A stretch of 64,000 bases of DNA, from sequence record OR352953.1; one strand, written 5' to 3'. Every line of letters starts with the position of its first letter. Position 1 is the stretch's first letter. The DNA is from Escherichia phage AV123. Under the pieces are notes generated by a model. That model made no database searches. It saw only the letters and a list, made by a program, of their open reading frames with translations, and was not told the DNA's origin. Shown piece after piece: positions 59,479 through 59,597 of the stretch. The position numbers were made by a program, and so were the translations under genes.

Positions 59479-59507
59479 TTGACATTTACTTAGTTTTTTG
59501 TTATAGT
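59479..59507 (+). promoter_or_regulatory. promoter (-35 TTGACA, -10 TATAGT) driving downstream tRNA-like RNA
   Basis: 17-nt spacer; ~12 nt upstream of the RNA 5' end. Confidence 0.5.
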
Positions 59508-59518
59508 CGTTATGAAAA

Positions 59519-59597
59519 CGGGGTGTATCTCACCTGACTTCTAATCAGGCGTTAACCGAGTAATTGGAGTATGCAGGTTCGAATCCTGTCACCCCGG
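59519..59597 (+). ncRNA. atypical tRNA-like RNA lacking a D-arm (anticodon-like loop CTTCTAA, TCT)
   Basis: acceptor CGGGGTG/CACCCCG, T-arm GCAGG-TTCGAAT-CCTGT, CCA encoded and one 5-bp stem-loop CCTGA/TCAGG, but no D stem; own promoter. Confidence 0.35.

What the first reader, a model, noticed from the sequence alone, without database searches (positions are those of the whole stretch)
59479..59597. Promoter-driven tRNA-like RNA lacking a D-arm
A strong sigma70-type promoter (TTGACA-17-TATAGT) sits ~12 nt upstream of a 79-nt sequence with a perfect acceptor stem (CGGGGTG/CACCCCG), canonical T-arm (GCAGG-TTCGAAT-CCTGT), encoded CCA and one anticodon-like stem-loop (CCTGA-CTTCTAA-TCAGG, anticodon TCT), but no D-arm can be drawn. 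It is followed instead by a 23-nt unpaired stretch. A second, similar acceptor/T-arm-only RNA lies at 60420-60496. T4 is known to encode two small stable tRNA-region RNAs of unknown function, and these may be counterparts, or tRNA mimics that interact with host tRNA-targeting factors.
Basis: partly seen in the sequence, partly recalled or inferred. Interest (0 to 1): 0.55.

Follow-up and report, generated by a model that had tools for sequence, protein, structure and literature searches.

The report
Rewired arginine tRNA of phages
This is most likely the phage's only arginine tRNA gene, built on a conserved non-cloverleaf plan in which the D-stem forms from two strands on either side of the anticodon arm; the plan recurs in hundreds of unrelated phages and is almost never annotated.

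Summary
A near-consensus sigma-70 promoter (59479-59507) lies 11 nt upstream of an 82-nt tRNA-like gene (59519-59600). The gene has a 7-bp acceptor stem, a canonical T-arm, an encoded CCA and an anticodon arm with anticodon UCU, but no hairpin D-arm.

The "23-nt unpaired stretch" is not unpaired. In 152 distinct relatives, three bases of the 5' linker always pair with three bases after the anticodon arm (456/456 cells, 12 complementary combinations). The remaining 12 nt carry a tRNA-Arg D-loop signature (AAYUGGA).

So the D-domain is rewired, not lost. The family occurs in Felix O1-like, phi92-like, rV5-like, jumbo, Sugarland-like and Streptomyces phages and in metagenomes, but hardly at all in bacterial genomes. 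Five of its six anticodons are arginine (UCU, CCU, UCG, ACG, GCG); one member has ACU. It never duplicates a canonical tRNA-Arg with the same anticodon in the same locus.

The near-identical phage arall has no other tRNA-Arg, and AGA makes up 25% of Arg codons in the window.

Best reading: a working tRNA-Arg(UCU) of a structural class I could not find described. The T4 small-RNA analogy fails. A decoy role is not excluded. Expression, charging and the 3D fold are untested.

The parts
59479..59507 (+). Sigma-70-type promoter: -35 TTGACA (59479-59484), 17-nt spacer, extended -10 TGtTATAGT (59499-59507). The inferred start is about 59514, giving a leader of about 4-5 nt.
   Evidence: 11 of 12 matches, TG present. 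Two similar promoters precede tRNA-Ser (59619-59648) and tRNA-Gly (60939-60968). Across the family, a promoter-like site lies directly upstream in 25 of 163 distinct upstream regions, against 6.1 expected.
59519..59600 (+). The whole gene: non-canonical tRNA-Arg(UCU), 82 nt including the encoded CCA.
   Evidence: Rfam tRNA 38.6 bits; family model R1 102.4 bits; one depositor annotated it as tRNA-Undet.
59519..59525 (+). Acceptor stem, 5' strand (pairs with 59590-59596).
   Evidence: 99.2% of cells paired, and all 7 pairs show changes on both sides.
59526..59528 (+). Connector TAT, identical in all 152 members. T59526 is the candidate equivalent of U8 (inference).
59529..59531 (+). Helix H, 5' strand (CTC). 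It runs into the anticodon stem after one base (A59532).
   Evidence: Pairs with 59558-59560. 162/162 cells paired in an alignment built without any requirement for H; 456/456 in 152 members, with 12 complementary combinations.
59533..59549 (+). Anticodon arm: 5-bp stem and 7-nt loop CTTCTAA; anticodon TCT at 59540-59542.
   Evidence: 95.9% of cells paired, all 5 pairs with changes on both sides. The loop keeps U33, C35 and A37.
59550..59557 (+). 3'-side bulge CGTTAAC(+C), family consensus C-R-T-Y-A-A-N. Its role is unknown.
   Evidence: Always 7 nt; CGTTAA 111, CATTAA 33, CGTCAA 6, CATCAA 2. The base at 59557 pairs with A59532 in only a minority of members.
59558..59560 (+). Helix H, 3' strand (GAG).
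59561..59572 (+). 12-nt connector TAATTGGAGTAT carrying a tRNA-Arg D-loop signature. Candidate equivalents: A14, R15, G18, G19, A20, A21 and Y48 (inference).
   Evidence: Near-invariant. Canonical phage tRNA-Arg D-loops from the same loci and from T4 read AAATGGATA, AACTGGATA and AATGGATA. Columns 45:54 (59563:59572) show A-T 149, G-C 2 (independent lineages), G-T 1, A-C 0.
59573..59589 (+). T-arm: 5-bp stem and loop TTCGAAT.
   Evidence: 99.3% of cells paired; the loop keeps TTCRA.
59590..59600 (+). Acceptor stem 3' strand (59590-59596), discriminator G (59597), encoded CCA (59598-59600).
   Evidence: The discriminator is G or A in 143 of 152 members; CCA is encoded in 106 of 152.

Best explanation
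The element is a functional arginine tRNA gene, tRNA-Arg(UCU), with a conserved non-cloverleaf architecture. Host RNA polymerase transcribes it from its own strong promoter, and transcripts probably read on into the downstream tRNA genes. It would be trimmed at the 5' end by RNase P, charged by the host arginyl-tRNA synthetase, and used to read AGA (and probably AGG) codons, which the phage uses heavily. The fold has the normal acceptor/T-arm limb. The other limb is one long coaxial stack: a 3-bp helix H sits directly on top of the 5-bp anticodon stem. Helix H is made from bases 11-13 and three bases lying 3' of the anticodon arm, with a conserved 7-nt bulge on the 3' side. The chain then runs through a 12-nt D-loop-like segment (AAYUGGAGUA) into the T-stem. 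I infer that this segment makes the usual elbow and core contacts (G18/G19 with the T-loop, U8-A14, R15-Y48) and presents the A20 equivalent to the synthetase. On that view the L-shape and the arginine identity set are kept while the chain connectivity of the D-domain is changed. What is shown: the sequence anatomy, helix H by covariation, the restriction to arginine anticodons in all but one member, the complementarity with canonical tRNA sets, the phage-wide distribution and the codon demand. What is inferred: expression, processing, charging, decoding and the tertiary model.
For: (1) Structure under selection. In 54 distinct sequences the four helices pair in 94.7% of cells, against 33-47% in slid registers, and 19 of 21 pairs show changes on both sides. 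Helix H alone pairs in 456/456 cells in 152 members; the maximum in 10,000 shuffles was 356, and slid registers gave 69-199. Pair 12:41 uses UA, GC, AU and CG. (2) Arginine anticodons. The counts are UCU 137, CCU 7, ACG 4, UCG 3 and ACU 1, plus a divergent GCG member. C35 is invariant and the discriminator is G or A in 143 of 152. (3) It fills a gap. In 14 loci that also hold canonical tRNA-Arg genes, none of the canonical genes shares the odd gene's anticodon. Felix O1-like phages with 23-26 tRNAs have a canonical ACG plus the odd UCU. L077, whose odd gene is UCG, holds a canonical UCU. (4) It is the only tRNA-Arg in this phage. The window has 15 other tRNAs, none of them Arg, and the rest of the 99.9%-identical arall genome has no tRNA at all. 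(5) Demand. AGA is 24.6% of Arg codons (10.1 per 1000) in the window's long ORFs, whereas AGA is rare in E. coli (my own knowledge). (6) The D-loop signature is shared with canonical phage tRNA-Arg genes, and the 45:54 pair changes A-T to G-C twice independently, with no A-C. (7) It behaves like a tRNA gene: it sits in tRNA arrays, CCA is encoded in 70% of members, and promoters are enriched upstream. (8) It is spread across unrelated phage groups at 82-86% identity and scores 48-102 bits with the family model, against 31 bits or less for ordinary tRNAs.
Against: There is no expression, processing or charging data. Nearest-neighbour thermodynamics does not favour helix H: adding it costs +0.95 kcal/mol on average, it appears in the MFE of 2 of 152 members, and RNAalifold leaves the region unpaired. 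So H rests on covariation alone. The sequences are related, so cell counts overstate the number of independent events. Most search patterns fixed some motifs, so the invariance of CGTTAA and GGAGTAT is partly built in. Outside mitochondria, tRNAs without a hairpin D-arm are not known to work with standard bacterial EF-Tu and ribosomes (my own knowledge). One member has C at the A20-equivalent position (L265). One member has anticodon ACU, which is not a normal arginine anticodon. The tertiary model rests on invariant bases plus only three informative variants.
Confidence: 0.72

Rival explanations
1. A tRNA-Arg mimic or decoy. The RNA is not used in translation. Instead it soaks up or blocks a host or competitor factor that attacks tRNA-Arg, such as an anticodon nuclease. 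Alternatively it is a nuclease-resistant replacement whose altered body escapes recognition.
For: The anticodon loop CUUCUAA and the T-arm are strongly conserved. A sub-clade changes position 38 from A to C. Phage tRNAs are known to rescue infection from the tRNA-cleaving PARIS defence system (abstracts of PMC10802454 and PMC12409363, listed). The unusual body could plausibly change recognition.
Against: A pure decoy has no need to switch among UCU, CCU, UCG, ACG and GCG, or to avoid duplicating the canonical tRNA-Arg present in the same phage. It also has no need to be the sole tRNA-Arg of an AGA-rich phage. The nuclease-resistant working tRNA version is compatible with the best explanation rather than a rival to it.
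Confidence: 0.13
2. A charged tRNA used outside ribosomal decoding, for example as an arginine donor for a transferase, or as a primer or regulatory RNA. On this view the odd body is tolerated because it never has to fit EF-Tu or the ribosome.
For: The arginine identity features are kept (C35, U36/G36, A/G73 and an A20-like base), while the D-domain departs from what the translation apparatus normally sees.
Against: The anticodon stem-loop keeps every feature needed for decoding (5-bp stem, 7-nt loop, U33, A37). Anticodon complementarity with the canonical sets only makes sense for decoding. No conserved partner gene lies next to it: the downstream ORFs fall into many small clusters, the largest being an HNH endonuclease at 17 of 150 instances.
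Confidence: 0.07
3. A decaying tRNA-Arg pseudogene that persists and spreads because it hitch-hikes with homing endonucleases in phage tRNA regions.
For: HNH endonuclease genes lie directly downstream in at least 17 of 150 instances. Interrupted or truncated copies exist: L012, L244 and L159b.
Against: Pseudogenes do not keep four helices by compensatory change across 152 variants with 95-100% pairing, and they do not keep a 7-nt bulge and a 12-nt connector nearly invariant across phages of Enterobacteria, Streptomyces and environmental hosts.
Confidence: 0.03
4. A counterpart of T4's small stable RNAs, species 1 and 2 (rnaC and rnaD).
For: Both lie in phage tRNA clusters.
Against: The family model finds nothing in T4's tRNA region beyond ordinary tRNA-level scores; rnaC scores 20 bits against 48-102 bits for members. 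rnaC and rnaD are 139 and 119 nt long.
Confidence: 0.02

Closest known systems
Canonical bacterial and phage tRNA-Arg(UCU), for example T4 tRNA-Arg and the E. coli argU product
   Same: 7-bp acceptor stem. 5-bp anticodon stem with loop CUUCUAA. T-arm with TTCRA. Discriminator A or G. A D-loop-type sequence AAYUGGA that includes the A20 position. Location in phage tRNA clusters. A presumed role in reading AGA in AT-rich phages.
   Different: There is no hairpin D-arm. The partner strand of bases 11-13 and the D-loop-like segment lie 3' of the anticodon arm. The junction is three-way rather than four-way. There is a conserved 7-nt bulge. ARAGORN misses it and most annotations omit it.
D-arm-lacking mitochondrial tRNAs of animals, such as mt-tRNA-Ser(AGY/AGN) (from my own knowledge; reviews listed)
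   Same: No D hairpin. A short connector after the acceptor stem. The anticodon helix is extended by pairing between connector and variable-region bases. By coincidence, some read AGN codons with a UCU or GCU anticodon.
   Different: The mitochondrial tRNAs have lost the D-loop and the elbow contacts, and they work with co-evolved mitochondrial factors. This family keeps a full D-loop signature, a canonical T-loop and a 12-nt connector, and it must work with ordinary bacterial machinery. The two are unrelated in sequence and in host.
Circularly permuted tRNA genes of the red alga Cyanidioschyzon merolae (from my own knowledge)
   Same: The order of tRNA segments along the gene differs from the canonical order.
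   Different: In the alga the whole gene is permuted and processing restores a normal cloverleaf. Here both acceptor strands are at the ends of the gene, so no simple processing could restore the canonical order, and the rewiring would persist in the mature RNA.
T4 rnaC and rnaD (species 1 and 2 RNAs)
   Same: Small RNAs encoded in a phage tRNA cluster.
   Different: No detectable relationship, different lengths, and no anticodon arm of this kind.
Phage tRNAs that counter tRNA-cleaving defence systems, for example T5 tRNAs against PARIS (PMC10802454 and PMC12409363, abstracts)
   Same: A phage-encoded tRNA that could replace a host tRNA under attack.
   Different: Those tRNAs are cloverleaf tRNAs. 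No link between this family and any defence system has been shown.

Membership tests
tRNA (Rfam RF00005) | Score at or above the curated gathering threshold | tested here: met
   38.6 bits against 29. It is the lowest of the window's 14 hits because the D-arm positions are skipped.
tRNA (Rfam RF00005) | 7-bp acceptor stem, discriminator, 3' CCA | tested here: met
   99.2% of cells paired across the family; CCA is encoded here and in 106 of 152 members.
tRNA (Rfam RF00005) | T-arm with 5-bp stem and a TTCRAnn loop | tested here: met
tRNA (Rfam RF00005) | Anticodon arm with 5-bp stem and 7-nt loop, U33 and a purine at 37 | tested here: met
   CCTGA-CTTCTAA-TCAGG; conserved with covariation.
tRNA (Rfam RF00005) | Hairpin D-arm between positions 10 and 25 (four-way cloverleaf junction) | tested here: not met
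   Only 7 nt lie between the acceptor and anticodon stems. A 3-bp helix with the same 5' strand exists, but its partner strand lies after the anticodon arm.
tRNA (Rfam RF00005) | Aminoacylation and use on the ribosome | not testable with these tools
   Indirect evidence only: arginine anticodons in all but one member, complementarity with canonical sets, and codon demand.
Arginine-accepting tRNA (bacterial ArgRS identity set: C35, U36 or G36, A20, A or G73; from my own knowledge) | C35 and U36/G36 | tested here: met
   C35 is present in 152 of 152 members; position 36 is U or G in all.
Arginine-accepting tRNA (bacterial ArgRS identity set: C35, U36 or G36, A20, A or G73; from my own knowledge) | A or G at the discriminator position | tested here: met
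   G in the window; G 87, A 56, T 7, C 2 in the family.
Arginine-accepting tRNA (bacterial ArgRS identity set: C35, U36 or G36, A20, A or G73; from my own knowledge) | A20 in the D-loop | tested here: inconclusive
   An A follows the GG of the D-loop-like connector in 151 of 152 members, as in canonical phage tRNA-Arg genes. Whether it occupies the A20 position in space is unknown.
D-arm-lacking mitochondrial-type tRNA | D hairpin replaced by a short connector, with an extended anticodon helix | tested here: met
D-arm-lacking mitochondrial-type tRNA | Loss of the D-loop/T-loop elbow nucleotides; organellar origin | tested here: not met
   The GG-containing D-loop signature and a canonical T-loop are retained, and the family is found in phages. 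It is analogous to these tRNAs, not a member.
T4 rnaC/rnaD small stable RNAs | Sequence or structure similarity to T4 rnaC or rnaD | tested here: not met
   Family model run on the T4 tRNA region with filters off: 24 bits or less.
tRNA pseudogene | Relaxed constraint: stems decay and there is no compensatory change | tested here: not met

The most novel reading that the evidence does not exclude
This is an undescribed structural class of elongator tRNA in which the D-domain is strand-swapped while the L-shape and the arginine identity set are kept. It spread through phages because the rewired body is not recognised by some host or rival factor that acts on canonical tRNA-Arg (a nuclease, toxin or modification enzyme). 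On this reading phages gain an attack-proof supply of the rare AGA decoder.
Probability: 0.2. Interest if true: 0.92.

Novelty: new variant of a known kind. Interest (0 to 1): 0.8.

Why it matters
Outside organelles, the cloverleaf is treated as universal for tRNAs that work with standard translation machinery. If this family is charged and used, then E. coli's RNase P, ArgRS, EF-Tu, modification enzymes and ribosome accept a tRNA whose D-stem is assembled from strands flanking the anticodon arm. That would redefine which parts of the tRNA core are really required.

It would also give a natural scaffold for engineering orthogonal or nuclease-resistant tRNAs. It would explain why tRNA-rich model phages such as the Felix O1-like, phi92-like, rV5-like and 121Q-like groups appear to lack the AGA decoder that T4 carries.

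On the practical side, hundreds of deposited phage genomes leave this gene unannotated or mislabel it (tRNA-Undet, tRNA-OTHER, tRNA-Leu). Standard tRNA finders therefore under-count phage tRNA sets. The experiments that would settle the question are simple, because the host is E. coli K-12 and the phages are in culture collections.

Tried and rejected
(1) The small hairpin CCGA-GTAA-TTGG inside the 23-nt stretch. This is the RNAfold MFE for the window sequence. Across the family it pairs in only 72% of cells, has one double change, and breaks exactly where helix H covaries. Rejected.

(2) Pairing of the bulge GTTA with the connector TAAY. There is no covariation: T35 to C leaves A44 unchanged, and G33 to A occurs with C or A at column 46. 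Rejected.

(3) Treating 60420-60496 as a second copy. It does not match the family model, shares none of the signature motifs, and is confined to Stephanstirmvirinae. It is a different object.

(4) T4 rnaC/rnaD homology: none.

(5) A cellular origin. A scan of 185,579 species genomes gave 83 pattern hits, but only four MAG contigs of 5.5-41 kb hold real members: L159, L173, L180 and L219.

(6) Two loose scan patterns returned mostly chance matches in AT-rich coding DNA; these were filtered out by structure.

(7) Literature. Nine full-text searches, including searches for the signature sequence itself, found no description of this family. The library lacks most subscription journals, so prior description cannot be ruled out.

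(8) Thermodynamic or RNAalifold support for helix H: none. I report this as a caveat.

(9) A universal own-promoter: not found. Promoters upstream are enriched but present in only a minority of members.

Full report
WHAT IS THERE. The window is a phi92-like myophage (Justusliebigvirus), 99.9% identical across this region to Escherichia phage arall. Positions 59145-62200 hold a cluster of 15 tRNA genes found by ARAGORN. In a gap of that cluster lies the reported element. A promoter, TTGACA-17-TATAGT with a TG extension (59479-59507, 11 of 12 matches), is the best site in the region. Eleven bases downstream begins an 82-nt sequence (59519-59600). It has a perfect 7-bp acceptor stem, a 5-bp stem with the 7-nt loop CTTCTAA, a canonical T-arm, discriminator G and an encoded CCA. 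Only 7 nt (TATCTCA) separate the acceptor and anticodon stems, and 23 nt separate the anticodon and T stems. Rfam's tRNA model reports it above threshold (38.6 bits against 29) by deleting its D-arm positions. ARAGORN does not report it. The arall record leaves it unannotated, and another record calls it tRNA-Undet.

IT IS A WIDESPREAD FAMILY. A sensitive DNA search with the 141-nt region found 258 phage records. In 55 phi92-like genomes the whole region, promoter included, is conserved. In about 200 others only the tRNA-like part matches, at 82-86% identity. These are unrelated phages: Felix O1-like, Kolesnikvirus, 350-kb Asteriusvirus jumbo phages (121Q), Sugarland-like phages, Mydovirus and other Vequintavirinae, a BASEL-collection phage, and Streptomyces phages. 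The spot is nearly always unannotated, and it is occasionally labelled tRNA-OTHER, tRNA or, wrongly, tRNA-Leu(taa). Pattern scans of IMG/VR and of JGI metagenomes, filtered by a structure-aware parser, raised the family to 233 instances and 152 distinct sequences. A scan of one genome per bacterial and archaeal species found only four MAG contigs of 5.5-41 kb with real members. It is therefore a phage family. A covariance model built from 54 members scores members at 48-102 bits and ordinary tRNAs at 31 bits or less. The window contains exactly one member.

THE "MISSING" D-ARM IS REWIRED, NOT MISSING. Lining up members showed that the acceptor, anticodon and T stems change by compensatory substitutions, while the linker, the loop and the 23-nt stretch are almost fixed. 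The few changes in the linker are matched by changes just before GTAA in the 23-nt stretch: CTC/GAG, CAC/GTG, CGC/GCG, CTT/AAG, CAT/ATG, CAG/CTG, CGG/CCG, CCC/GGG, CGT/ACG, CTG/CAG and TCC/GGA. I counted pairs on an alignment assembled without any requirement for this pairing. The three pairs 11:42, 12:41 and 13:40 (window 59529-59531 with 59560-59558) are standard pairs in 162 of 162 cells, with 28 changes on both sides. In all 152 members they pair in 456 of 456 cells. The maximum in 10,000 column shuffles was 356, and slid registers gave 69-199. Pair 12:41 uses all four Watson-Crick combinations. The alternative small hairpin that single-sequence folding predicts pairs in only 72% of cells, has one double change, and breaks where helix H covaries. 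Because bases 11-13 are followed after one base by the anticodon stem, helix H must stack on that stem. The result is a 3+5-bp coaxial helix with a conserved 7-nt bulge (C-R-T-Y-A-A-N) on the 3' side. This is about the length of the D-stem plus anticodon-stem stack of a normal tRNA. The junction is three-way, not four-way.

THE REST OF THE STRETCH LOOKS LIKE A D-LOOP. After helix H the chain reads T-A-A-Y-T-G-G-A-G-T-A-T and then enters the T-stem. Canonical tRNA-Arg genes in the same phage loci and in T4 have D-loops reading AAATGGATA, AACTGGATA and AATGGATA. I therefore infer the following equivalents. A59562 and A59563 correspond to A14 and R15. G59566 and G59567 correspond to G18 and G19, which pair with the T-loop. 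A59568 corresponds to A20, a major ArgRS identity element in E. coli (my own knowledge). A59571 corresponds to A21. T59572, directly before the T-stem, corresponds to Y48. The invariant T59526, directly after the acceptor stem, corresponds to U8. One prediction was testable. If 59563 and 59572 form the R15-Y48 tertiary pair, then G at the first position should come with C at the second. Among 152 members the combinations are A-T 149, G-C 2, G-T 1 and A-C 0. The two G-C members differ in acceptor stem, helix H, bulge, T-loop and anticodon, so they are independent events. This supports the model but is thin evidence, and the three-dimensional model remains an inference.

WHY I THINK IT IS A WORKING tRNA-Arg. 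(a) The anticodon is not fixed. It is UCU in 137 distinct members, CCU in 7, ACG in 4 and UCG in 3, with GCG in a divergent member. C35 is invariant and the discriminator is A or G in 94% of members. One member has ACU. (b) Phages can carry two or three such genes with different arginine anticodons: L265, L091 and L088. (c) In 14 loci that also hold canonical tRNA-Arg genes, none of the canonical genes has the odd gene's anticodon. Felix O1-like phages with 23-26 tRNAs have a canonical ACG and the odd UCU. A Streptomyces-type contig has canonical GCG, UCG and CCU plus the odd UCU. L077, whose odd gene is UCG, has a canonical UCU. (d) This phage has no other tRNA-Arg. None is in the window, and the remaining 82 kb of the arall genome has no tRNA by ARAGORN or Rfam. 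(e) AGA is 24.6% of Arg codons in the window's long ORFs, while AGA is a rare codon in E. coli (my own knowledge). (f) The gene behaves like a tRNA gene: it lies in tRNA arrays, usually encodes CCA, and often has a promoter just upstream (25 of 163 distinct upstream regions, against 6 expected).

CAVEATS. Nothing here shows expression, processing, charging or decoding. Helix H is not favoured by nearest-neighbour energies (mean +0.95 kcal/mol; present in the MFE of 2 of 152 members), and RNAalifold leaves the region unpaired. Its support is comparative only. The family members are related, so cell counts exceed the number of independent events. The scan patterns fixed parts of the conserved motifs, so their invariance is partly by construction. 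The scan that left the connector free still found it nearly unchanged, with informative exceptions: GGAGTAC in L272 and GGCGTAT in L265.

RIVALS. A decoy or nuclease-evading mimic is not excluded. Phage tRNAs are known to rescue infection from tRNA-cleaving defence (abstracts listed). However, anticodon switching among arginine anticodons and complementarity with canonical sets argue for decoding, and a nuclease-resistant working tRNA would combine both ideas. A pseudogene spreading with homing endonucleases is contradicted by the covariation. HNH genes do lie directly downstream in at least 17 of 150 instances, and one copy is interrupted by an HNH ORF, which may help to explain the horizontal spread. 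The T4 rnaC/rnaD analogy fails a direct test.

COMPARISON AND NOVELTY. Functionally the element is closest to ordinary phage tRNA-Arg(UCU). Architecturally it is closest to the D-arm-lacking mitochondrial tRNAs, which also extend the anticodon helix. Unlike those, it keeps the D-loop and T-loop signatures and must function with standard bacterial factors. It is not a permuted gene of the red-algal type, because both acceptor strands are terminal. Nine full-text searches, including searches for the signature sequence, found no description of it. The library is incomplete, so prior description cannot be excluded. I classify it as a new variant of a known kind: a tRNA with a rewired D-domain.

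VERDICT. The best explanation is a functional, non-cloverleaf tRNA-Arg(UCU), with confidence about 0.7. Interest is high, because the family is widespread, it is present in culturable E. coli phages, and the decisive experiments are simple.

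Noticed in passing
window 59339-59448 (+): Another unannotated tRNA-like sequence of about 106 nt. It has acceptor stem GCCTAGT/ACTAGGC, T-arm ATGG-TTCGATT-CCAT, a 7-bp hairpin GTTAGAC-CGCTTT-GTCTAAC in the variable position, and a loop CAUCAAA (a possible UCA anticodon, but with A instead of U at position 33). ARAGORN and Rfam both miss it. It is found in only 31 phage records, 30 of them at 95% identity or more and one Salmonella phage at 72%.
   Followed up: partly
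It has acceptor stem GGACTTG/CGAGTCC, a T-arm with an 8-nt loop (TATCGAAT), and a central imperfect 9-bp hairpin with an AAGA loop instead of an anticodon arm. Its fold z-score is -3.9. It is conserved at 90-100% identity in 87 records, nearly all phi92/phAPEC8-type (Stephanstirmvirinae), and it is unrelated to the rewired tRNA-Arg family.
   Followed up: partly
window 62056-62119 (+): A weak sub-threshold tRNA hit (22.9 bits in Rfam, 17 bits with the family model) between tRNA-Met and tRNA-Ile. It may be a degenerate tRNA.
   Followed up: no
window 60020-60150 and 61060-61480 (+): Unannotated gaps of about 130 nt and 420 nt inside the tRNA cluster, with no tRNA or Rfam hit. They could hold small RNAs or short ORFs.
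   Followed up: no
L012 399-474 (Klebsiella phage vB_Kpn_K18PH07C1); also L244 6108-6183 and L159 1458-1536: Interrupted or truncated copies of the rewired tRNA-Arg. In L012 an HNH endonuclease ORF starts right after ...TTGGAGT and replaces the T-arm. I did not check whether the 3' part of the gene lies downstream of that ORF, as it would in an intron-like insertion.
   Followed up: partly
ORFs directly downstream of family members in many loci (for example L006, L013, L014, L045): HNH endonuclease genes (PF13392, 45.7 bits) follow the tRNA directly in 17 of 150 instances, and a second cluster of 7 has weaker HNH signatures. This is compatible with spread of the gene by homing.
   Followed up: partly
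L037 4163-4256, L067 2516-2609, L057 1612-1702, L091 6269-6364: tRNA-Ile(UAU) genes of 91-96 nt with a normal D-arm but a long variable arm, lying next to rewired tRNA-Arg genes in environmental phage contigs. A long variable arm is unusual for an isoleucine tRNA.
   Followed up: no
L361 (metagenome contig OGWC01005896.1): One family member has the loop CTACTAA (anticodon ACU) in an otherwise typical body. It could be a sequencing or mutational variant, or an A34 tRNA that reads AGN codons.
   Followed up: no
L007 399-480 (phage 121Q, NC_025447): The RefSeq record annotates the rewired tRNA-Arg(UCU) as tRNA-Leu(taa), which reads the anticodon loop out of register.
   Followed up: yes
L265 3326-3405 and 3407-3496; L091 13348-13429: Divergent relatives of the same architecture with shorter or longer bulges and connectors. 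Their anticodons are GCG, UCG and UCU. This shows that the plan tolerates variation and that one phage can encode up to three such tRNA-Arg genes.
   Followed up: partly
L049 6424-6703: A tmRNA gene (tag peptide ANSMNASAFALAA) lies within the tRNA cluster of a Streptomyces-type phage contig that also carries the rewired tRNA-Arg.
   Followed up: no
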